Assembly (NCBI GenBank): GCA_032250995.1
Contig: JAVVFF010000001.1
Span: 1-54,732 of the forward strand
Source: Methylophaga sp.
GTDB taxonomy: Bacteria > Pseudomonadota > Gammaproteobacteria > Nitrosococcales > Methylophagaceae
Direction: 5' to 3'
Length of the DNA: 54,732 nucleotides
In this document: positions 1-10,767 of the stretch, piece by piece
How the letters are laid out: each line of letters starts with the position of its first letter
Numbering within the stretch: the stretch's first letter is position 1
Made by a program: the position numbers and the translations under genes
Notes under the pieces: generated by a model
The model's database searches: none
What the model saw: only the letters and a program-made list of their open reading frames with translations
Told to the model about the DNA's origin: nothing

Positions 1-352
1 TGATCTTGGAACAGGCATTTAGTTCATTTTTCTTAAACGAGATTCAGGTTAAGTACTTATAGTCTTTAAACAAAAATCATTAGCTCCCTACTCTTAAGTT
101 CATAAATATCTATAATATTTTCAATCATAGTCGCTTCCTCTATTAAGATATGTGATTCAGCGATTATCCAACTTAGCCAGGGCTACACAAGCAAGATTTC
201 ACAAAAACTGCTAAATTACGTTCATCGACGCTCTCTATATTGAGCGAGTGATTTATAATTAGCCATAGAAAGTATGACTGGTTTGATCGTCATAATGAAT
301 TTCTGTCTATTAGTGGGGAAATCATATGTTTCGACTCGGGTGTAAAGCTTCG

Positions 353-380
353 ATATAGCACCAATCTGATGTTGCTATAT
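353..380 (-). terminator. Hairpin immediately after the stop of the TupA-like gene (possible terminator, weak U-tract)
   Basis: ATATAGCA (353-360) and TGCTATAT (373-380) are inverted repeats directly 3' of the stop at 381; no strong poly-U follows. Confidence 0.35.
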
Positions 381-1220
381 TTAGTTATGCCTTGCGGCTG
401 GCCACCAGAGCGACGCATCAGAACCAGGCATCCGATATTGCATGATTTTCGCTTGGATATCTGGATGTAATAAATAGGTCTCTAATGCTTCAGCGCCTTT
501 TTCGTTAACCTTAATAGTTTCGGTGGGCAGCACTCGACTGATGGCCATTATCCGCTGCAACAACGGATCAGCCGCCAGCAAAATTTGCATATCAGACTGA
601 TGTTTCTGCTGAAATTTCAGAAACGGTACCGCTCCCCAAATGACATAGGCGCCCTGCTTTTCAGCCGCTTTAATGGCCCGGCCTTTACTCACGCCTGAAT
701 CCTGATACCAGTCTGGTTCAGCAGCATGGCCCATCATCGTCAGAACGGTTGCCGTGAGTTCACTGATCCCTTCGTTATTATTGGCAATCAAAGTGTGACC
801 AGATTGTTCAATTGCTGCAAAGGCCGCTAATAATGAATGCGCCTCGGAAACCTTTGCCGGATCAGCCGCTAGCCCAATCAATACCGCCTGATTGGCGAAT
901 ACCATTTGCGGCCAGCTGCCACGCTTGTCTTGAACAAATTCTGCCATGCCCGACTTACCATAATGGGCGATAACAATATCTGCAGCGCCTTGCCGGGCTT
1001 GTTCAAACACTTGATTGCCACTGTAAATCTCGACATTCAGTCCGGTTTCAGCAGAAAAAGCTGGCAACAAGGCATCTAGCAAACCACTGTCATAGGGCGT
1101 ATTCACCACGGCAAGACGCACGGTATCTTGTTGCGAGGCAACATGCTTGTCAGCGCTACTCGCCAGTAATAATAAGCTGGCCGCCAACAGTCCCAAAATA
1201 CGTCCGGATTTCAAATGCAT
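381..1220 (-). CDS. Periplasmic substrate-binding protein, TupA/PBP-like (oxyanion-binding family), atypical motif
   Basis: Signal peptide; VRLAVVNTPYDSGLLDALLPAF..ETG..V and ARQGAADIVIAH resemble TupA LRLATTTS..DSGLL..LLP.F and G.ADV..VH; N..VLIG...DPA segment present. Confidence 0.75.
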   Translation of the reverse strand: MHLKSGRILGLLAASLLLLASSADKHVASQQDTVRLAVVNTPYDSGLLDALLPAFSAETGLNVEIYSGNQVFEQARQGAADIVIAHYGKSGMAEFVQDKRGSWPQMVFANQAVLIGLAADPAKVSEAHSLLAAFAAIEQSGHTLIANNNEGISELTATVLTMMGHAAEPDWYQDSGVSKGRAIKAAEKQGAYVIWGAVPFLKFQQKHQSDMQILLAADPLLQRIMAISRVLPTETIKVNEKGAEALETYLLHPDIQAKIMQYRMPGSDASLWWPAARHN

Positions 1221-1234
1221 TTTTACAACGATTT

Positions 1235-3304
1235 TCAGTAACGAAGATTGATCCCGGTATACACGAACCTGCCCGGTTGTGGAAAGCCAAAGCTTGTTTC
1301 GTAATCTTCATCAAACAGGTTCTCCGCTCCAGCATAAACATCGGCTTGACCACCAGCAAAGGTATATTTCAAGTGGGTATTGACCAGCTCAAAGCTATCG
1401 AGCTTATCGCGTAGCGCCGGATCAACCCTGCTGAAATGATTTTGCGAACCAATACGCACCACATCCCCGGTTAACTGCCACTGGGATGTGATCTGGTAAA
1501 TTGCCTGCAGACTGGCTTTATGCGTTGGTCTATTTTGCAACCGGTCGGTTAAAACACCAGCAGATCTATCCTTACTGTCTAAAAAGCCTAATCCTGCTCG
1601 CACCGTCAGTTTTTCGCTGAATTTATAGGCACCGTTAATATCAATACCTTTAAACCTCAGTTCATCGCGGTTTTCAAAGGGCCCACCCTGTTCAGCACGT
1701 TCGATAAAATCATCGACATCAGTTTGCCAGACAGCGATATTTAAATCGGCCCGCTGCCATTGATTACGCAAACCCGCCTCATAATGTTTGGCACGTTGAA
1801 AACCCAGCCCAAGATTGCCCGTACCTTGTTCATACAGTTGCCGTATCGTAGGCGCATCCACCTTGCGCGCAACGGTGCCATACATTGTACTAGCCTCATT
1901 TAACGGCTTGCTGAGTGAAAATTGCGCGCTGTGTGCTGTCTCGTCACTGCCACCGGAAATATCCAGTTCATGCCTGCCCACCCCGACCACAGCGGTCAGG
2001 TCATAAGGTAAAGCCTGCGTTAATTCAACAGCATAGGAACGAATGTTCAGATCTTCATCGGTTGCGGTTGTCGATAACGGTGTAGCTGGACATGATTTGT
2101 TATTGTTGTTGTCGCCACCGCCACCGCCACCGCCACCGCCACCGCCACCGCCAGTGATTGTGCATTCCAGACCATTTTCGTCATAGTCTTCATTACGATG
2201 ATCGAGACTAAAAGCAATCTGGCTGCCAGTCGCAGGCAACTGACCTATTAATTGGGCATGCACCCCTTGCGTTTGCGTTTCTTCTTCGCGTAAAAAGGTG
2301 TTATTAGTAGTGAAACTATTGAGGTTTAAATCATCGTATCTGGCGGTACGTTCTTGAAGTTGATTACCAAAAAACCACAGACGGCCGGCCCAGTTATCAG
2401 TAAAGGCATAATCGGCGCCAAGTTGCAGTGAATAACCACGCTGCGATTCAACCCGTTCAAAACGTGCCCGTTGCGCAAATTCATCAACTTCGTTGTCGAG
2501 CGTAATCGGTGGCTTGCCGAACTCGCCCTCAAGATAGCTGGCAAAAAAACCAATGGTCAATTTATCCGTCAGGTCACGATGGTAAGATAGCACCAGGTTC
2601 TCACGACGGTTGTCACTGTTGTTGCGTCCGTTATTGTCCTGAAAGTTGTCGGCGGTGTTTGCCAATGGACTGCTGAAATCATTGGAGACAGAAAAATCAT
2701 CGCGGTCTCTTACGCCATAACCCAAAAAGAAATCCTGATCAGCATCGCCGTAGCCCACCTGACCATTGACCAGCCAGAAATCATCACTGCCACGCTCGAG
2801 CTTTGAAGCCGCTTTGAAGCCATCCTGTACACCACGGGTTTTAATATCAATAACTCCCGCCATGCCTCCATCACCATATAAGACGGATGAACTGCCCACA
2901 TTCAAATCAATACGGCCAATCGCAAAAGCGGGTATCAAACTGGGATCAAACTGACCATCAAAAGTTGAATTGAACGGAATCCCATTGACAAGCAATTTAA
3001 TCTGCCGTGTCCGCAGCCCACGAATATCGATGCGGGGCGTGCCATCACCGCCATACCGCACATTGACACTGGGTGTTAACCGCAAAGCATCTTCCAGACT
3101 TCTGGCACCAAGCAATTCCAATTCCTGTTGATCGATTTGATATTGGGTGCCAGCTTCCGGTTGCGTGTTTACCACCAGATTCCCCAGTTCATAGACCGGT
3201 TCCTCAGTGGTAGCAAATACCGGGGCTGAAAAAGCAGCTGTACACAAAGCAATGGATATATTTTTACCTATATATCGATAGGTAAAAGTTGATGACGTTT
3301 TCAC
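1235..3304 (-). CDS. TonB-dependent outer-membrane receptor
   Basis: Signal peptide, TonB-box-like LVVNT, plug motifs (LEDALRLTPSV, IDIRG, LLVNGIP, GGMAGVIDIKT), C-terminal ENLFDEDY...PGR...GINLRY with terminal aromatic residue; GTG start with AGAGG RBS. Confidence 0.95.
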   Translation of the reverse strand: MKTSSTFTYRYIGKNISIALCTAAFSAPVFATTEEPVYELGNLVVNTQPEAGTQYQIDQQELELLGARSLEDALRLTPSVNVRYGGDGTPRIDIRGLRTRQIKLLVNGIPFNSTFDGQFDPSLIPAFAIGRIDLNVGSSSVLYGDGGMAGVIDIKTRGVQDGFKAASKLERGSDDFWLVNGQVGYGDADQDFFLGYGVRDRDDFSVSNDFSSPLANTADNFQDNNGRNNSDNRRENLVLSYHRDLTDKLTIGFFASYLEGEFGKPPITLDNEVDEFAQRARFERVESQRGYSLQLGADYAFTDNWAGRLWFFGNQLQERTARYDDLNLNSFTTNNTFLREEETQTQGVHAQLIGQLPATGSQIAFSLDHRNEDYDENGLECTITGGGGGGGGGGGGGDNNNNKSCPATPLSTTATDEDLNIRSYAVELTQALPYDLTAVVGVGRHELDISGGSDETAHSAQFSLSKPLNEASTMYGTVARKVDAPTIRQLYEQGTGNLGLGFQRAKHYEAGLRNQWQRADLNIAVWQTDVDDFIERAEQGGPFENRDELRFKGIDINGAYKFSEKLTVRAGLGFLDSKDRSAGVLTDRLQNRPTHKASLQAIYQITSQWQLTGDVVRIGSQNHFSRVDPALRDKLDSFELVNTHLKYTFAGGQADVYAGAENLFDEDYETSFGFPQPGRFVYTGINLRY
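2114..2152 (-). repeat. In-frame hexanucleotide tandem repeat (GGTGGC on - strand, about 6.5 units) encoding Gly13
   Basis: (gccacc)6+gcc on the + strand, inside the TonB receptor gene. Confidence 0.95.
3252..3279. promoter_or_regulatory. ModE-box match inside the 5' coding region of the TonB receptor
   Basis: ATGG-a-TATATT-tttacc-TATATA-t-CGAT versus consensus ATCG-N-TATATA-N6-TATATA-N-CGAT: 2 mismatches. Confidence 0.65.
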
Positions 3305-3319
3305 CTCAGACCTCTTTAG

Positions 3320-3871
3320 TTATTTTCTTTGTTTACGAAGACTGCGCCAGGCCATGAAACCAATCAAGCCACCAACGCTGCCAAATATAAAATGGGTAAT
3401 AAAGGGATATGCAATCCCATGCCGGAAAGAATCAGTTTCGACACCGGCAACCATGATAAGACCAACCTTGAAAGCCGGCTTAACCGTATGCACCAGTCCG
3501 GCGACTAATGGCAACAGCCACAACGTGACGGGCTGTGTCGACAGGCGGCGGTAAATCACATCCAGCACAATACCCTGACTGAGCAAAATCAATGCAGCAG
3601 CTAAGTTATCACGGATAATTAATGCTGCAACCAGCCCGCCGGCACCAGCCAACGTTGCTGTGTAAGCATACGGCGCACTACACCGCACAAAAATCAGGAT
3701 GGCCATCAGCGTCAGACCCTGACGACCGGGCAACTCCAGCCCAAAACGAAAGGTTTCATGCAGCACCATCGCTAATGCACCTGCCAGGAAAATCAGCAGA
3801 TGACGAACACGTGCCGAATGCAGCCGTTCAGAACTGCTTGAGATAGTTTTTTGCAGCAACTTGCCAGACAT
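3320..3871 (-). CDS. Small multi-pass inner-membrane protein, ECF S-component-like
   Basis: About 183 aa with 5-6 hydrophobic segments and a LPGRQG loop after TM1; ATG at 3871 with GAGGAG RBS, overlapping the end of the upstream gene. The family call is inference from size and topology. Confidence 0.6.
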   Translation of the reverse strand: MSGKLLQKTISSSSERLHSARVRHLLIFLAGALAMVLHETFRFGLELPGRQGLTLMAILIFVRCSAPYAYTATLAGAGGLVAALIIRDNLAAALILLSQGIVLDVIYRRLSTQPVTLWLLPLVAGLVHTVKPAFKVGLIMVAGVETDSFRHGIAYPFITHFIFGSVGGLIGFMAWRSLRKQRK

Positions 3872-4568
3872 TGGCTTGCTCCTCAACGGGTTCAACAATC
3901 AGACATGGCTCACCATTGAGCCAAATCGCCCGAGGCCATGCGCCCATCATGATCTTTGCACTTTTATTGCTCAGTACCGCACCCTCTATGCTCTGCACAA
4001 CGGCAATATCCGTGGCATTTTGTAATTCAGACAGTGTCAGGGTTTGCTCAGCATGATCGCGCATCCCGGCCAGCCACAATAAACGACCATCGTTACCGGC
4101 AGCACATAAACAAGCGGCGGCTAAAGCGCCAATAACACCATCTTCAGTGCCCGTTAAACCAAATAAACCCAACTGGGCAACTTCAGCTAAATCTCTTGCT
4201 TGTGTCTGGGTTACAACACGGTGTTTACAAAGCACGCCGAATCTCGCCAGGGCATGACTCAGATTTGTTTCTGGTAATAAACACAGACCGGCATCAGCGC
4301 CTTCAGCGCTATTTTCTAACAGGTAGTTTTTGCAGAGCTGCTCGATGGCTTTCAGTGAAGCTGGTACTTCAACGACTAGACAGGCAGCGCTGTTATGCGA
4401 CGTAAAGGGCACTAAAGGACTCATCAGTAATTGATGTCGGGTAACAAACCGACAACGTCCCAGCGCATTATCATTGATGGCGGCACACAAAGCGCGGGCA
4501 TGAAACCCCGTTCCCCGACTTTCTAAATTGTCGGTGTCATCGATGCCAATAAATAAACAACTTGCCAT
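3828..4568 (-). CDS. Stand-alone TiaS-like catalytic-domain protein (GIDDTD family)
   Basis: FIGIDDTD..ESRGTG, RHQLL..P.VPFTSHNSA, DAGLC and GVIGALAA match the N-terminal catalytic domain of archaeal tRNA(Ile2) agmatidine synthetase TiaS; at about 246 aa it lacks the OB and Zn-ribbon domains. ATG at 4568 preferred over TTG at 4583. Confidence 0.75.
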   Translation of the reverse strand: MASCLFIGIDDTDNLESRGTGFHARALCAAINDNALGRCRFVTRHQLLMSPLVPFTSHNSAACLVVEVPASLKAIEQLCKNYLLENSAEGADAGLCLLPETNLSHALARFGVLCKHRVVTQTQARDLAEVAQLGLFGLTGTEDGVIGALAAACLCAAGNDGRLLWLAGMRDHAEQTLTLSELQNATDIAVVQSIEGAVLSNKSAKIMMGAWPRAIWLNGEPCLIVEPVEEQANVWQVAAKNYLKQF

Positions 4569-4590
4569 ATTGCGGAATGCCAAATGAAAT

Positions 4591-4618
4591 ATCGACGTAT
4601 TCCATCATATATAACGAG
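4591..4618. promoter_or_regulatory. ModE-box match upstream of the TiaS-like gene
   Basis: ATCG-a-CGTATT-ccatca-TATATA-a-CGAG; one half-site reads CGTTATATA on the - strand; about 22 nt upstream of the ATG and directly downstream of the ModE-family gene. Confidence 0.7.
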
Positions 4619-4651
4619 GGCTGTAAACGTTTGGCTGATGCACTAAAAATA

Positions 4652-4999
4652 TCAGGACTTTAATAGTTTGCTGATTGCAGCTAAATCGTCCTCGACCGAT
4701 TTAGTCGCTTTTTGTTCAATTTGCCTGTAAAGGCCAAGCACTGATTGCCCGAAAACTGTCACCTCCGCACCACCACCATGACTGCCACCTTTAACCGTTT
4801 CAACCAACGGTTTGGTAAAGCTGCTGTTCATGGCATTCACCAGATCCCAGGCACGTTTATAAGACATGCCCATTGCCCGACCGGCAGCAGAAATTGAACC
4901 ATGTTGTTGAATCGCTTCCAGCAGGTCCGCTTTACCGGGACCGATGGCAACCACATCATCATTATGAAAACGGATTTTAATACTGACTGCTTTTGACAT
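4652..4999 (-). CDS. modE: ModE-family transcriptional regulator, N-terminal winged-helix domain only
   Basis: IGPGKADLLEAIQQHGSISAAGRAMGMSYKRAWDLVNAMN..F..PLV....GG..GGGA is the ModE wHTH; 115 aa, no TOBE/Mop domains. Confidence 0.9.
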   Translation of the reverse strand: MSKAVSIKIRFHNDDVVAIGPGKADLLEAIQQHGSISAAGRAMGMSYKRAWDLVNAMNSSFTKPLVETVKGGSHGGGAEVTVFGQSVLGLYRQIEQKATKSVEDDLAAISKLLKS

Positions 5000-5038
5000 G
5001 CCCGAAACACTTGAAGATATACAAGCCAAATATCATAC

Positions 5039-5054
5039 ATGCAAAATTTTGCAT
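5039..5054. promoter_or_regulatory. Perfect 16-bp palindrome upstream of modE (possible operator)
   Basis: ATGCAAAATTTTGCAT, about 40 bp upstream of the ATG at 4999. Confidence 0.45.
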
Positions 5055-5344
5055 ATTCATTAAGACTGCATCCACCTTTGAACTTCTATGTCACTTTGGC
5101 TTTACAACATCAGTTATCTGCACAATCCCAGATGCGTAGAATGCGAAACCCTTGACGTACAATTACCCACCCGATAAAGCCCCAGCTGCGATTAATTTGG
5201 TGCTTGAGCAGGCTGAGGCGTTGTCTAATAGCTGTGTGGCGTAAACTGCCGAAAATAGCCCCAAACGCAGTTTAATGCGCTATCATTTGACTGAACATTA
5301 ATCTGCTACAAAACCTGATTGGCGACCCAGCGCAGGCCCATAAA

Positions 5345-5391
5345 AATCAATAACTTACTGGAGAGCATCGAGCATCTCTCGTTCTCCGCCA
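5345..5391 (+). mobile_element. Putative attR: IHF site plus displaced tRNA-Ser 3' fragment
   Basis: AATCAA-taac-TTA (5345-5357) fits the IHF consensus WATCAANNNNTTR; ATCTCTC-GTTCTCC-G-CCA (5374-5391) resembles the T-stem 3' strand, acceptor 3' strand, G discriminator and CCA of tRNA-Ser. Confidence 0.55.
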
Positions 5392-5408
5392 TATAAATCA
5401 ATGTCACC

Positions 5409-8400
5409 TTAAAACTTATTCCGATTGTCTATTAAGAAGTGGACAAAAGCCTCAGGGGCTAAAGGTTTTGCAAAATAGTATCCCTGCAGCCAATCACAGC
5501 CCATATGCGTCAAAGTTGCCCGCTGACTGGCCGTTTCTACCCCTTCTGCAACGATATTGATATCCAGTCGTTTGGCCATTCCCACAATGGCTTCGATAAT
5601 AGCCCTGTCATTGTCATCGGTTTCCAGATCCCGGACAAAAGATTTATCGATTTTCAGATAATCGACTTCCAGTTGTTTTAAATACGCCAGTGAAGAATAG
5701 CCGGTACCAAAATCATCAATCGAAATTTTCACCCCGAAATTGCGCAAGTTACGTAATAAATCACGACTCTCAGCACTGCGTTGTAATAAGACGCCCTCAG
5801 TGATTTCCAGCGTAATCAGGCTGCTGTCCAAATCCAGTTGCTGTAAATGACCGATCCAGTCAAGCCGGCCTTCTTGAGTGCCAAAACCTTGCGCCGATCG
5901 GTTGACCGATACCGCAATATCACCATAACCCTGCTGCTGCCATAGGAGGATTTGCTGACAAACGCCAGCAAACACATGGTCATCAATTCTGGCAATCAGG
6001 CCCATTCTCTCTGCCGCCGGTAAAAATTCGGCCGGCGTAATTAAGCCTCGCTCAGGATGCTGCCAACGTACCAGGGCTTCGGCGCTAATAGCGCCAGTTT
6101 CGGCGTGGATTAACGGTTGATAATAAATACAGATTTGATTTTCGTTTAGAGCCTGTTCCAGCTCATTAATAATAAAAGTCCGCGATTGCCAAGTGGATTC
6201 AAGTTCTGAGGAATACAACATAAAAGCACTGCCACCGGCATCTTTGGCGGCATACATTGCCCGATCAGCGTTTTGCATCAGCAAACCGGCGTTTTCACCA
6301 TCATCCGGATAAAAAGTCAGGCCGATACTGGTGCTGATCCGGATAGTCTGATCTTTGATACACAGTGGCTGTTCGACAATTTCAATCAGTTTTTGGGCAA
6401 TCGTTACCGCATCCTGACGTTGTTCAAGGCCGGTCAGAATAATGGTGAATTCATCGCCGCCCAGCCTAGCCACCGTGTCAACATCACGCAGGCAATCCTG
6501 GATCCGTCCAGCCATATGACGCAGCAATTCATCACCGACATCATGGCCCAGCGTGTCATTGATATCCTTAAATCGATCCAGATCCAAAAACATCAGACAC
6601 AGCTTGCTCTGATCGCGCTGACAATGCCGGATCTCCTGCACCAGCCGGTCATTAAACAATCGGCGGTTAGGCAGGCTGGTCAGCAGATCGTAATTGGCCT
6701 GATGTTCAATAGTTAACTGTGCTTGTTTGCTCTCACTAATATCAGTAAACACCGCAACATAATTACTCAGTTCACCGGCATCATCGCGCACCAACGACAT
6801 TGATAAATACGTGGAAAAAATCTCACCATCTTTACGCCGGCTAAGCATTTCACCCCGCCACAGGCCATTTGAGCTTAGTTCAGCCCAGAGCTTGGCAAAA
6901 AACAGTTCATCATTGAGGCCGCGATCCAATAATTGCGGAAACTGGCCCAGCACCTCACATTGGCTAAAACCGGTGATCTGACTATAAGCAGAGTTTATGG
7001 CAATAACATTTTTCTCGGCATCGGTTATTAAAAACCCCTCACTGGCAGCATTAAAAGCAACATCAGATAATCGCAAGTCAGCTTGCGCCCGTTGCATTTC
7101 GGCAAGCACTTCACGGATCCGCCGTTCCGATTCGACGGCCCGGTCAGTGGCCACTGATAACTGTTCGGTGCGGCGGGTTACTTCACTGGCAATCCGGTGG
7201 GTACGGCCTGTGATACTGAGGATCAACGCGCAAAATAAACTCATCAGTAAAAAGCCACCGATCATGACAAACAAAGTCTGATTACGTTGATTATTTTCCA
7301 GAAATAAACTGGTGGGCGTAAAAATTAGCCGCATTTGCCGCCCCGCAGCCTCAATATCGACCCTATGCCGGAACGGTGGCGTTTCCGTGACCGCCACATC
7401 ATAGTAATAATCACCGCTCAGCAAATCCTGCCATTGAATCTCAAACTCGGTAAATTCCCGTTTACCCAATACATTTTCAACAAAATCTTCGGTGCGAATC
7501 GCCACATTAACCAGACCGGCAACTTCTGCATTGCTCATATCCAGCGTCAGTTGACCAGCTACGTTACGATATACCGGCCGGTATAGCATCAGAATACGTT
7601 TTGAATATGTTTTACGCACCATCATTAATGGTGGCCGCGCATAACTACTGCCACTGGCTAAAGCAGTCTGCACCGCCGCATTAGAAATCACTGATGAGGT
7701 GGGATCAAATCCCTGCGCCCGTTGATTGCCTTCCTCAGGCTCTAAATAGGTAATCGGAAAATATTCGTCGCGATCCTCGGCCGGCAACAATTTATTACCG
7801 GGTTTGATATCGGTAATAGTGAACTGCGGACCGAAATATTGCTGTTGCTCAGCTTCATAAGCGGCACGTTGCTCACGGATTACTTTCGGCAACCATTCAA
7901 TCACCTGAATATTTTCGCTTTTGCCAGTCGCCCATTTAACAAAGACGCGAAATTCTTCACGGCTGACATCATCCGAACTGACAAATAACTGGGCAACACT
8001 GTCCTGCACCAGTTGCTGTGAGGTTAAGGCAATTTGAAATAAAGTACCGGCTTCCTGAGTGCGGATTCGAAAACGATCTTCCAATTGCCGCTGCTCAAAA
8101 CGGGCAACACTTTGACTGACCATAACGACTGCTATAAATACTACGGCGGTCGGCAGGCCCAACATATTGCGTCGGGGCCGCCACAGCGCCTTGGGCTGAC
8201 CAATAAAACTCAGCGTTATCGGCCCGGCAATCAATAAACCCAGCGCATCACCCAACCACCATGAAGCCCATAAGCCAGCAGGTGTCAGGCTGTTTTCAAC
8301 ACCGGCGAATAACAAAAATGGCACACTGATACTGGCGCTTATTAATGTTAGCAATGGCACCAACATCAAAAACTGCAGGATCTGGTTATCGGTTTCTAAT

Positions 8401-8783
8401 TCCAGCGGCGCCTGACAAAAGCGCCTAATCAACACACTGGCAAGCAAAGCCTGAATGCTGCTGGCTGTCGCCACCACCAAAGCGATCTGCAGATCCAGAC
8501 GCTCCAGCCCTGCAGCATCCCAGGCGATCCCGGTATTTAATAACAAGCTACCGAAAAACAACCCTGGTAAAGCCGAGCGCCAACCAAATGTTAATACCAC
8601 CATAATGGCAATACCGGCTGGTAAAAATGCCACTGAGGTATATTGCTCAGCGGCAGTGAAAGCCAGACTCAGTTGACCGCTGACAAAATAAGCAATGGCA
8701 ACCGCCAAATTAATCAGCAGACCACGTTGTCCAACTTTCACATTCAAATACTTCTCTCCCGGTGGTGGGCCCGGCAGCGCCAA
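5409..8783 (-). CDS. Membrane MASE1-CHASE-PAS-GGDEF-EAL c-di-GMP signalling protein
   Basis: N-terminal TMs ending WWLGDALG (MASE1), periplasmic CHASE (YFPITYLEP..GN..A.GFD), PAS, RLGGDEF, EALVRW and IDDFGTGYSSL; start codon uncertain. Confidence 0.92.
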   Translation of the reverse strand: MALPGPPPGEKYLNVKVGQRGLLINLAVAIAYFVSGQLSLAFTAAEQYTSVAFLPAGIAIMVVLTFGWRSALPGLFFGSLLLNTGIAWDAAGLERLDLQIALVVATASSIQALLASVLIRRFCQAPLELETDNQILQFLMLVPLLTLISASISVPFLLFAGVENSLTPAGLWASWWLGDALGLLIAGPITLSFIGQPKALWRPRRNMLGLPTAVVFIAVVMVSQSVARFEQRQLEDRFRIRTQEAGTLFQIALTSQQLVQDSVAQLFVSSDDVSREEFRVFVKWATGKSENIQVIEWLPKVIREQRAAYEAEQQQYFGPQFTITDIKPGNKLLPAEDRDEYFPITYLEPEEGNQRAQGFDPTSSVISNAAVQTALASGSSYARPPLMMVRKTYSKRILMLYRPVYRNVAGQLTLDMSNAEVAGLVNVAIRTEDFVENVLGKREFTEFEIQWQDLLSGDYYYDVAVTETPPFRHRVDIEAAGRQMRLIFTPTSLFLENNQRNQTLFVMIGGFLLMSLFCALILSITGRTHRIASEVTRRTEQLSVATDRAVESERRIREVLAEMQRAQADLRLSDVAFNAASEGFLITDAEKNVIAINSAYSQITGFSQCEVLGQFPQLLDRGLNDELFFAKLWAELSSNGLWRGEMLSRRKDGEIFSTYLSMSLVRDDAGELSNYVAVFTDISESKQAQLTIEHQANYDLLTSLPNRRLFNDRLVQEIRHCQRDQSKLCLMFLDLDRFKDINDTLGHDVGDELLRHMAGRIQDCLRDVDTVARLGGDEFTIILTGLEQRQDAVTIAQKLIEIVEQPLCIKDQTIRISTSIGLTFYPDDGENAGLLMQNADRAMYAAKDAGGSAFMLYSSELESTWQSRTFIINELEQALNENQICIYYQPLIHAETGAISAEALVRWQHPERGLITPAEFLPAAERMGLIARIDDHVFAGVCQQILLWQQQGYGDIAVSVNRSAQGFGTQEGRLDWIGHLQQLDLDSSLITLEITEGVLLQRSAESRDLLRNLRNFGVKISIDDFGTGYSSLAYLKQLEVDYLKIDKSFVRDLETDDNDRAIIEAIVGMAKRLDINIVAEGVETASQRATLTHMGCDWLQGYYFAKPLAPEAFVHFLIDNRNKF

Positions 8784-8912
8784 AGCATGTCATTACCGAC
8801 TGTAATATTTCTACCGATATTAGCATTAGTTAAGTAGCTTTGCGCAGTGTCAAAGACAAATCCATTAATCATGGTAAAACCGGGCAAAAACCCTTAGAAT
8901 AACGGCTTCAAT

Positions 8913-9029
8913 GGTGGCTCGTGCTGGTCTCCTCGCGACGATATGTAGGTTACCCCGTCAGGCCCGGAAGGGAGCAGCGAAGCCTTCGGACTCGGGCGCC
9001 GAGATCAGGCTGGTACGGGTTCACCACCC
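8913..9029 (+). ncRNA. ffs: Signal recognition particle small RNA (4.5S)
   Basis: TCAGGCCCGGAAGGGAGCAGC helix-8 motif; complementary ends GGTGGCTCGTGC and GTACGGGTTCACC; TAGAAT -10 at 8895-8900; canonical position upstream of dnaX. Confidence 0.95.
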
Positions 9030-9063
9030 TCTTCAGACAGCAATGGGTGATCGACAGACTGAT

Positions 9064-10767
9064 ATGAGTTATCTGGTGCTGGCCCGTAAATGGCGACCTA
9101 AATCGTTTTCCGAAGTTATCGGCCAGCAGCATGTGCTGCAAGCGCTGATTAATGGTCTCAATCAGAATCGTCTGCATCATGCTTTTTTGTTTGCTGGCAC
9201 CCGCGGTGTCGGTAAAACCACGCTGGCCCGCATTCTTGCCAAATCCCTGAATTGCGAACAAGGTGTCAGTGCCACACCCTGCGGGCAGTGCAGCAGTTGT
9301 CAGGAAGTAGATGCCGGTCGGTTTGTTGATTTAATTGAAGTTGATGCTGCCTCGCGCACCAAAGTCGATGACACCCGCGAACTGCTCGACAACGTGCAAT
9401 ATGCGCCCAGCCGCGGCCGCTATAAAGTCTATTTGATCGACGAAGTCCATATGCTTTCCACCAGCAGTTTTAATGCGCTGCTAAAAACTCTTGAAGAACC
9501 CCCGCCACACGTCAAATTTCTGTTTGCCACCACCGATCCGCAAAAATTGCCGGTGACTATTTTATCGCGCTGTCTGCAATTTAATTTGCGTAGACTGACG
9601 ATCAAACAAATTACCGATCATCTTGCCGATATTCTCAGCAAAGAAGCTATCGACTTTGAAATTGAAGCATTGCAACAACTCGCCCATGCCGCCGATGGCA
9701 GTATGCGCGACGCACTGAGTTTGCTGGATCAAGCGATTGGTTTTGGTGATGGCCGGGTTGATGCCGTCAGTGTCCATCAAATGCTCGGCAATGTTTCACA
9801 GCATCAATTGCTGGGGATTTTGCAGGCTTTAACGGCCCAAGACGGACAAAATCTATTACACCAAGCTGCTGAATTAGGTGCGCTGGGCCGTGACGTCAAT
9901 GTGGTGCTGGATGCGCTGATGAATGCGTTGCAACGGATCGCTACTTTGCAATTAGTCCCCGATTCAGAAAACCCGGATAGCAGCATGGACATTGCGCTGC
10001 AACCACTGGTCGCAGCATTCTCAGTCGAAACTGTGCAATTGTTATATCAAATAGCGCTACACGGGAAACGGGATATGCCTTATGCCGCGGATCCACAAAG
10101 CGGTTTTGAAATGACGTTGCTGCGTATGCTGCATTTTCAGCCACATGCTCATAACTTTAGTATTCAGGACACACCGCCAAAAAAGTCGCCGGCTGCGCCA
10201 GATGAACTGACGGCCGAGCCGCCCAAATCAGTACTATCGCCGCCTGCGGATAATCCCCCCCAAGCACCTGATGCACAGACAAGCAGTAACCCCAAACAGC
10301 CGCTGAAAAATACAATCGCTGAACCTGAACCCAAATCTATGCCCGTGACTGAATCGGCTGGAGATACGGATTTATCGCTGGGCAACTGGACCCAACTGGT
10401 TGCTAAGTTGAAATTATCCGCTATCACCCGGCAATTGGCAGATCACTGTGCTTTTGTTGAAGCCAGTGACCAACACATTACCTTGTTATTAGCCAAAGAC
10501 CTGGCCCACCTTGCCACCGAAAATGCCAAAGCCAAACTGCAAGTTGCCGTCAGTAAAACCCTTGGTTATGAAGTCAAACTGGTATTTGAAACAACCGACG
10601 ATAAACAAAGTCATTCCGAACCGACTTTGGCCGGTGAACGGGCTCAGCAACAAGCGAATCATCAACAGCAGGCGGAAGCCGCTATTCACAATGATCCGGT
10701 CGTTGAGGTGATCAAAAAAACTTTTAATGCCCGTATAATCGACAGTACCATCAAACCATTGAATTAA
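9064..10767 (+). CDS. dnaX: DNA polymerase III subunit tau/gamma
   Basis: [21 protein letters not shown] Walker A, C4 zinc motif, [10 protein letters not shown]; true start at 9064 (the ORF-track extension runs through ffs). Confidence 0.98.
10166..10216 (+). promoter_or_regulatory. Programmed -1 ribosomal frameshift cassette in dnaX
   Basis: SD-like AGGA at 10166-10169; in-frame A AAA AAG at 10179-10185; hairpin CGGCTG...CGGCCG at 10190-10216; -1 frame stops at TGA 10203-10205. Confidence 0.7.

What the first reader, a model, noticed from the sequence alone, without database searches (positions are those of the whole stretch)
381..4999. Candidate undescribed Mo/W-regulated uptake-and-processing system: ModE, TiaS-like enzyme, solitary ECF-S-like protein, TonB receptor, TupA-like SBP
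Seen: five co-oriented genes. The last four are tightly packed (44-bp overlap, then 15- and 14-bp gaps), and two ModE-box matches are present. Known: ModE controls molybdate/tungstate genes; free MoO4/WO4 normally enter through porins plus ModABC, TupABC or WtpABC; TonB receptors import larger or scarce ligands. Inference: receptor, periplasmic SBP, inner-membrane S-component-like protein and cytoplasmic ATP-dependent enzyme form a complete import route with no ABC ATPase or permease. The cargo is probably an organic Mo/W-related molecule (a metallophore-Mo/W complex, or a pterin/molybdenum-cofactor derivative for salvage) that the TiaS-like enzyme then modifies or opens. I know of no characterised system with this composition.
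Basis: partly seen in the sequence, partly recalled or inferred. Interest (0 to 1): 0.88.

Follow-up and report, generated by a model that had tools for sequence, protein, structure and literature searches.

The report
Tungsten-linked two-membrane import operon
A Methylophaga operon pairs an outer-membrane receptor, a vitamin-transporter-like membrane protein and a kinase-fold enzyme under molybdenum/tungsten-type operator sites, and the same core recurs across phyla in tungsten-enzyme users, so it likely forms an undescribed route for importing tungsten, probably bound to an organic (pterin) carrier.

Summary
The five genes, the 44/15/14-bp junctions and both ModE boxes are present, and the boxes recur at the same two positions in other Methylophaga carriers. 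The enzyme has the TiaS kinase fold without the tRNA-binding domains. The membrane protein has the ECF S-component fold, and no EcfT was found in the host. The enzyme has the S gene nearby in 33 of 52 loci from many phyla; 26 of 52 carry Mo/W marker genes, against 0 of 15 true TiaS loci. In 251 Bacteroidales genomes, 39 of 40 carriers encode tungsten AOR-family enzymes (62 of 211 non-carriers). Corrections: the SBP is optional and has lost TupA's oxyanion residues; ModE is DNA-binding domain only; carriers keep MoaC and ordinary Mod/Tup/Wtp importers, so auxotroph salvage is not supported. Best reading (0.45): import of a tungsten-pterin complex, trapped by phosphorylation, analogous to BtuB-BtuM-BtuR. 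A W/Mo-acquisition role is about 0.85. The cargo is untested. No description was found in ten literature searches. This scan has noted the same module before on other DNA.

The parts
4652..4999 (-). ModE-type winged-helix regulator, DNA-binding domain only (115 aa, no Mop/TOBE domains)
   Evidence: TIGR00637 90.5 bits (cut-off 98.5). 62-66% identical to paralogues beside canonical tupA in other Methylophaga; groups with them, not with modABC-linked paralogues (support 90/85, not starred).
4591..4618 (.). ModE box 1, between modE and the TiaS-like gene
   Evidence: 4 mismatches to consensus; same position in 7 of 8 other carriers.
3828..4568 (-). Stand-alone TiaS kinase-domain homologue (DDTD motif) with an ~85-aa C-terminal domain of its own; predicted ATP-dependent kinase
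   Evidence: Model pLDDT 93.7. Matches TiaS 3amt Z 20.7, rmsd 2.5, 156 aligned; Foldseek E 1e-9; HH 97.5% to an archaeal TiaS. Invariant D10 D11 T12 D13, R44 H45 Q46, T56-S60.
3320..3871 (-). ECF S-component-fold membrane protein (183 aa), solitary in this genome
   Evidence: Model pLDDT 89.7. Top 14 VIA rows are S components; best 5edl Z 14.5, rmsd 3.8, 160 aligned. Homologues hit PF09819. No EcfT found in the host.
3252..3279 (.). ModE box 2, inside the first codons of the receptor gene
   Evidence: 2 mismatches, best in genome; same position in 6 of 8 other carriers.
1235..3304 (-). TonB-dependent outer-membrane receptor of an unnamed subfamily
   Evidence: Plug and barrel Pfam hits; far below every named NCBIfam cut-off; host has TonB.
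2113..2154 (-). GCCACC repeat encoding a 14-Gly loop, flanked by two Cys, in the receptor
   Evidence: A poly-Gly run is present in 8 of 9 aligned receptors, down to 34% identity.
381..1220 (-). Diverged TupA-fold periplasmic binding protein lacking the oxyanion residues; optional part
   Evidence: Best PDB hits are TupA-family proteins, E 1e-20 to 3e-12. NF041772 51 bits vs 263 for the host's canonical TupA. TTTS, R118, T124 and D170 equivalents are replaced.

Best explanation
The operon likely imports tungsten (possibly also molybdenum) across both membranes as an organic complex, most likely a dephosphorylated pyranopterin-metal complex, and the TiaS-fold enzyme would trap it by ATP-dependent phosphorylation. 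Shown: the gene set, folds, operator boxes, cross-phylum linkage, association with tungsten enzymes, and no EcfT found in the host. Inferred: (1) the ModE-HTH protein represses at both boxes when metal suffices; (2) the TonB receptor concentrates a scarce ligand in the periplasm; (3) where present, the remodelled TupA-fold protein buffers it; (4) the S-fold protein carries it across the inner membrane, by ECF ATPases in Anaerolineae, spirochaetes and archaea, or by facilitated toppling in Methylophaga and Bacteroidales; (5) the kinase phosphorylates a hydroxyl on the cargo, pulling transport and feeding W-pterin into cofactor assembly. In this host the client would be the MeFDH1-type tungsten formate dehydrogenase. 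A role in W/Mo acquisition is about 0.85 likely, an organic cargo about 0.6, and pterin plus trapping as stated 0.45.
For: Linkage: among 52 loci of the short enzyme, S-like gene in 33, TonB receptor in 25, Mo/W marker in 26; 0 of 15 true TiaS loci for each. Tungsten: in 251 Bacteroidales, 39 of 40 carriers have AOR-family genes vs 62 of 211 non-carriers; among MoaC-positive genomes, 38 of 95 AOR-positive vs 0 of 18 AOR-negative carry it. The host FDH alpha chain scores 1266 bits to W-MeFDH1 (7vw6) vs 595 to 6tg9; 8 of 9 Methylophaga carriers have this orthologue vs 16 of 28 non-carriers. The nearest ModE paralogues precede canonical tupA. Organic cargo: the enzyme accompanies three importer types mostly used for vitamins and chelates (solitary S, full ECF in 10 loci, FecCD-type ABC in 3). 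All 9 Methylophaga carriers already have modB and tupA, and 4 of 5 Bacteroidales carriers tested have wtpA. The SBP has lost the oxyanion residues and has conserved aromatics. Pterin: a membrane-anchored partner in 10 of 52 loci looks like the sulfite-oxidase pterin-binding fold, as in the periplasmic pterin binder PruR; Moco riboswitches precede 2 of 21 loci scanned. Kinase: TiaS fold and DDTD motif. Rare fusions to glycerol-3-phosphate oxidase (3 proteins) and MftF (1) hint at a small-molecule hydroxyl kinase. Trapping precedent: BtuM with BtuR.
Against: Carriers make their own pterin: MoaC in 29 of 30 and 38 of 40, MoeA in 27 of 30. Only 1 of 6 AOR-positive, MoaC-negative genomes carries the enzyme. 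The enzyme also sits beside pure metal-handling genes (MoSto in 6 loci, MOT1 in 2, Wtp/Tup), and 19 of 52 loci show no S-like gene (several are short contigs). A sister ModE in Methylophaga heads an operon joining a TonB receptor with canonical TupA and a ModA-like protein, so receptors can work with plain oxyanion binders. The S protein's conserved loop (PG-H/R/K-H/Q-G) and H160 suit a bare anion equally well. The pterin-fold call rests on Atlas scores of 0.88 (lead level), TM 0.78 between predicted models and one sub-cut-off Pfam hit, and that partner is absent from this locus. Free Moco is oxygen-labile (recalled). One Bacteroidales carrier (G322) has neither AOR nor MoaC and no transporter beside the gene. 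Genomes are related, so the p-values overstate.
Confidence: 0.45

Rival explanations
1. High-affinity route for bare tungstate or thiotungstate: the receptor concentrates it, the S protein carries it like the metal S components NikM/CbiM, and the ATP enzyme activates it or hands it to MoeA or MoSto.
For: Strong AOR link. Adjacency to wtpA, tupABC, MOT1, MoSto and moeA-moaA-moaC. Sister operon joins a TonB receptor to canonical TupA. His/Arg/Lys-rich S pocket. Poly-Gly receptor loop could nest an anion (inference). Carriers are prototrophs.
Against: Canonical oxyanion importers are already present. The operon's SBP lost R118 and TTTS. FecCD-type importers and pterin-fold partners are hard to explain.
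Confidence: 0.25
2. The cargo is a non-pterin W/Mo metallophore or a pirated chelate, and the enzyme modifies the ligand to release the metal.
For: TonB receptors and FecCD-type importers typically carry chelates (established knowledge). The SBP pocket is remodelled.
Against: No chelator biosynthesis gene recurs among the clustered neighbours. Pterin-fold partner and Moco riboswitch.
Confidence: 0.13
3. Sensing rather than uptake: the S-fold protein is a receptor, and the TiaS-like protein kinase supplies the signal that the sensor-less ModE-HTH lacks.
For: The S fold is shared with receptors (PMC11109136). TiaS is a dual protein/RNA kinase. modE-HTH lies next to the enzyme without an S gene in L045 (short contig) and L050.
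Against: Sister ModE-HTH proteins and boxes occur in genomes where the enzyme was not found, e.g. G041, G044. The S protein comes with EcfAA'T in other phyla.
Confidence: 0.08
4. The cargo is a known micronutrient unrelated to W/Mo (cobalamin, thiamine precursor, iron chelate).
For: Nearest solved receptor by sequence is BtuB, plug only. S homologues hit PF09819, the YkoE family of thiamine-precursor S components (name recalled).
Against: No B12 or TPP riboswitch in window 1-10000 or in 21 loci. ModE boxes and 39-of-40 AOR linkage.
Confidence: 0.05

Closest known systems
BtuB-BtuM-BtuR cobalamin uptake (PMC6072759, passages read)
   Same: TonB receptor, solitary S-component fold with no ECF module, and a linked cytoplasmic ATP enzyme proposed to trap the cargo.
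   Different: Different S family; kinase fold instead of adenosyltransferase; ModE boxes or Moco riboswitch instead of B12 control; homologous S proteins also occur with full ECF modules.
TiaS, archaeal tRNA(Ile2) agmatidine synthetase (PDB 3amt, 3amu, 3u02)
   Same: N-terminal kinase fold with GIDDTD and GxIGALAA motifs.
   Different: 246 vs ~420 aa; the rest of TiaS is missing; family-specific RHQL and TSHNS motifs; host has TilS.
TupABC / WtpABC / ModABC oxyanion importers under ModE
   Same: TupA fold, ModE-type operator, W/Mo context.
   Different: No type I ABC permease or ATPase in the operon; SBP lacks TTTS, R118, T124, D170; the host has separate modABC, tupA and tupB/tupC-like genes.
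Group I ECF transporters (YkoEDC, CbrT, CbiMNQO, NikMNQO)
   Same: S fold; dedicated EcfA-A' and EcfT in 10 of 52 loci.
   Different: I recall no W, Mo or pterin-cofactor S component, and none turned up; here it is solitary.
PruR periplasmic pterin-binding protein (PMC13259868 section 7)
   Same: A similar-sized SUOX-like exported protein accompanies the core in Anaerolineae, spirochaete and archaeal loci.
   Different: That partner is absent from this locus; PruR signals to DcpA and is not a transport part.

Membership tests
TiaS | Kinase (TCKD) fold with DDTD motif | tested here: met
TiaS | Full-length ~420-aa protein with the downstream tRNA/agmatine-binding domains | tested here: not met
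   246 aa; 156 residues align to 3amt; NF040849 19.7 bits vs cut-off 600
TiaS | ATP turnover and phosphoryl transfer | not testable with these tools
   Inferred from fold and motif only
ECF S component | ~20-kDa six-helix S fold | tested here: met
   Top 14 VIA rows are S components, best Z 14.5, rmsd 3.8, 160 aligned; Foldseek E only 0.13
ECF S component | Works with EcfA/A'/T | tested here: inconclusive
   Met for homologues in other phyla; no EcfT found in the host (92% complete) or 10 other carriers
ECF S component | High-affinity ligand binding and transport | not testable with these tools
   Needs biochemistry
TupA | TupA-type binding-protein fold | tested here: met
   Hits 3muq, 3kn3, 5my5, 3lr1
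TupA | TTTS motif, R118, T124, D170 | tested here: not met
   VVNT, N, I, G at these places; only the His59 equivalent is kept
TupA | Linked tupBC | tested here: not met
   None in the operon; tupB/C-like genes lie on other contigs
ModE | ModE winged-helix domain and E. coli-type operator | tested here: met
   consensus as given in PMC545781
ModE | C-terminal Mop domains that bind molybdate | tested here: not met
   115 aa, HTH only; the host's single TOBE hit is in an ABC ATPase
BtuB/BtuM cobalamin system | Receptor + solitary S + trapping enzyme architecture | tested here: met
BtuB/BtuM cobalamin system | BtuB family score and B12 riboswitch | tested here: not met
   TIGR01779 119 bits vs 600; no riboswitch in window 1-10000

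The most novel reading that the evidence does not exclude
Bacteria and archaea use their own pyranopterin as a tungsten scavenger. A dephosphorylated dithiolene pterin released from cells captures trace tungsten, returns through a dedicated TonB receptor and S component, and is re-phosphorylated by a stand-alone TiaS-fold kinase straight into tungsten cofactor. This would explain why carriers are pterin prototrophs with tungsten enzymes, why the operon lies in line with moeA-moaA-moaC in some Bacteroidales, and why pterin-fold binders accompany it.
Probability: 0.13. Interest if true: 0.93.

Novelty: new variant of a known kind. Interest (0 to 1): 0.75.

Why it matters
The Mo/W importers described in the papers read are ABC systems for the bare oxyanion. 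A TonB/S-component route would give a new answer to how cells obtain tungsten where it is far scarcer than molybdenum (in seawater roughly 50 pM vs 100 nM, recalled). It would also give the first non-tRNA job for the TiaS kinase fold that I could find. The family is large (4611 protein clusters; 40 of 251 Bacteroidales) and present in cultured methylotrophs, so it is testable now. It bears on producing tungsten formate dehydrogenases for CO2 reduction, whose W supply and maturation are active problems (PMC13197769 abstract).

Tried and rejected
Auxotroph salvage: tested and not supported (MoaC in 29 of 30 and 38 of 40 carriers). Replacement of missing Mod/Tup importers: rejected, all 9 Methylophaga carriers have modB and tupA. 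tRNA modification: rejected. Sequence search of the PDB with the enzyme found nothing. The Atlas gave no usable hit for its C-terminal domain, and the fold searches barely tested that part, so its fold is open. No enzyme-S fusion among longer homologues (4 hits of 5052 candidates; weak evidence). Complex prediction of enzyme with S protein could not be run because the queue was full, so binding is untested. Expression: no RNA holder listed. The promoter scan found no more sites than shuffles (4 vs 9.2). Rfam: only the SRP RNA in window 1-10000; 21 of the 52 loci were scanned for riboswitches and the other 31 were not. Literature: ten searches gave no description of this operon or enzyme family. 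The library lacks most subscription papers, and no supplements were read; regulon tables in supplements could list these genes.
Full report
Observation. The five minus-strand genes and their junctions are as described. The host is a Methylophaga, judged from the closest homologues. Box 2 (3252-3279, 2 mismatches) is the best ModE-consensus match in the genome. Box 1 (4591-4618, 4 mismatches) is not significant alone, but its position is conserved. Among the 8 other Methylophaga carriers, box 1 is found in 7 and box 2 in 6 at 5 or fewer mismatches. Box 2 lies inside the receptor's signal-peptide codons, which would explain the conserved RYIxKNIS stretch (inference). Locus GC (0.484) matches the genome (0.478).

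The parts. The 246-aa protein folds like the N-terminal kinase part of TiaS (Z 20.7, rmsd 2.5, 156 aligned; best unrelated row Z 7.3) and keeps the DDTD motif. It lacks the rest of TiaS, and the host has TilS, so it is not a tRNA enzyme. That TiaS has a dual RNA/protein kinase domain comes from a passage in PMC11938285; residue-level roles are recalled, and the primary TiaS papers were not read. The 183-aa membrane protein matches ECF S components in the top 14 rows of a PDB-wide comparison (best Z 14.5). Foldseek E-values were weak (0.13), and helical bundles score middling Z easily. Independent support is that homologues sit with EcfA-A' and EcfT genes and hit PF09819. No EcfT was found in the host, 5 other Methylophaga or 5 Bacteroidales carriers. 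The SBP has the TupA fold. Of the binding elements listed in PMC5517513 (passages) it keeps only the His; TTTS, R118, T124 and D170 are replaced. The ModE is DNA-binding domain only; such proteins are noted, with unknown sensing, in PMC545781 (passages).

Conservation. A genome scan gave 67 loci: 52 with the short enzyme and 15 with true archaeal TiaS. Within 8 kb of the short enzyme there is an S-like gene in 33, a TonB receptor in 25, EcfT in 10, a FecCD permease in 3 and a verified Mo/W marker in 26. The 15 TiaS loci have no S-like gene, receptor or Mo/W marker. The profiles and marker queries were partly drawn from these loci, and many contigs are short. Markers include ModE-HTH, MoSto (6 loci), AOR, moaA/moaC/moeA, WtpA, TupAB and MOT1; Moco riboswitches were found in 2 of 21 loci scanned. 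In Methylophaga 9 of 37 genomes carry the enzyme. The SBP is in the operon in 4, absent from it in 3 (elsewhere in one of these), and not assessable in 2 where the contig ends. G049 keeps modE at a carrier's site without the other genes. The core is therefore enzyme + S (+ receptor in diderms).

Which metal. In 251 Bacteroidales genomes, 40 carry the enzyme; 39 of these have AOR-family genes, against 62 of 211 non-carriers. Among MoaC-positive genomes, 38 of 95 with AOR carry it and 0 of 18 without. AOR as a tungsten family is established knowledge. Kin are not independent, so I rely on the counts and not the p-values. Of 30 carriers from many phyla, 23 have AOR. The Methylophaga loci tested there have no AOR, but the host's FDH alpha chain is an orthologue of the tungsten enzyme MeFDH1. 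It is found in 8 of 9 carriers and 16 of 28 non-carriers, which is a weak trend. The locus ModE is 62-66% identical to paralogues that precede canonical tupA and groups with them.

Which form. Carriers already hold ordinary importers: modB and tupA in 9 of 9 Methylophaga and wtpA in 4 of 5 Bacteroidales tested. This suggests another chemical form or a higher-affinity route. For an organic form: the importer types, the remodelled SBP, a SUOX/PruR-like exported partner in 10 of 52 loci (lead-level scores), and Moco riboswitch control. Rare fusions of the same enzyme family to glycerol-3-phosphate oxidase (3 proteins) and to the mycofactocin glycosyltransferase MftF (1) suit a hydroxyl kinase. 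Against simple salvage: MoaC in 29 of 30 and MoeA in 27 of 30 carriers, and only 1 of 6 candidate auxotrophs carries the enzyme. For bare tungstate: neighbours such as MoSto, MOT1 and wtpA; a His/Arg/Lys-rich S pocket; and a second Methylophaga operon that joins a different TonB receptor to canonical TupA and a ModA-like protein under the same type of box, seen in 5 of 10 stretches fetched.

Mechanism. I commit to import of a W-pterin complex with trapping by phosphorylation (0.45), by analogy with BtuB-BtuM-BtuR, where BtuR is proposed to trap cargo (PMC6072759 passages). Rivals: bare tungstate 0.25, another chelate 0.13, sensing 0.08, unrelated cargo 0.05. Anatomy, folds, boxes and linkage are shown. 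Repression, transport, ATP use and cargo are inferred. Whether enzyme and S protein touch is open; their genes overlap in Methylophaga, Bacteroidota and other lineages.

Novelty. Ten searches found no description in the open library. Seen as passages: PMC5517513, PMC2408646, PMC545781, PMC6072759, PMC11109136, PMC11938285, PMC11672702 (first half held), PMC11484787 and PMC13259868 (plus section 7). Seen as abstract and outline: PMC13197769. No supplements were read. The architecture is a known kind; the families, the metal link and the kinase are undescribed, hence 'new variant of a known kind'. This scan has noted the module many times on other genomes and not on this one. Those notes are leads, not support.

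Noticed in passing
L126:6917-13666 (also L127, L128, L129, L131): A second Methylophaga operon: (modE-HTH)-canonical tupA-TonB receptor-SBP-di-haem oxidoreductase (PF06537)-ModA-like protein, with ModE boxes, beside moaCDE, porins and an FDH cluster. Its receptor is 39% identical to the one divergent from the TiaS-like gene in L023.
   Followed up: partly
window 2113-2154: 14-Gly loop between two Cys in the receptor; a poly-Gly run persists down to 34% identity homologues. Function unknown.
   Followed up: partly
window 3252-3279: Operator box embedded in the signal-peptide codons of the receptor, apparently constraining the amino-acid sequence.
   Followed up: partly
P0272-P0274, P0271: The same enzyme family fused to glycerol-3-phosphate oxidase (3 proteins) or to mycofactocin glycosyltransferase MftF (1 protein), suggesting uses outside W/Mo uptake.
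   Followed up: partly
L118:7914-8726: In G023 the diverged SBP lies away from the operon, downstream of genes that look like the formyltransferase/hydrolase (fhc) cluster (read from sequence, not scanned).
   Followed up: no
L135:2362-2709: Orphan modE at a carrier's insertion site with the enzyme, S and receptor genes missing, likely a loss event.
   Followed up: partly
L028, L030, L035, L043, L047, L049: Single MoSto-like genes (E 4e-66 to MoSto beta for L028) next to the TiaS-like gene in Dehalococcoidia, Desulfobacterota and Anaerolineae.
   Followed up: partly
L124:7237-9149, L125:7439-7756: Broken remnants of the enzyme (and receptor in L124) in two genomes of a related family.
   Followed up: no
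window 5409-8783 and 8922-9018: MASE1-CHASE-PAS-GGDEF-EAL gene upstream (also flanking the operon in G007 and G023) and the SRP RNA before dnaX; the ORF call 8911-10767 starts too early and overlaps that RNA.
   Followed up: no
window 1140-1220: The SBP N-terminus lacks the lipobox-like Cys seen in three relatives, so it may be soluble here and a lipoprotein there.
   Followed up: no
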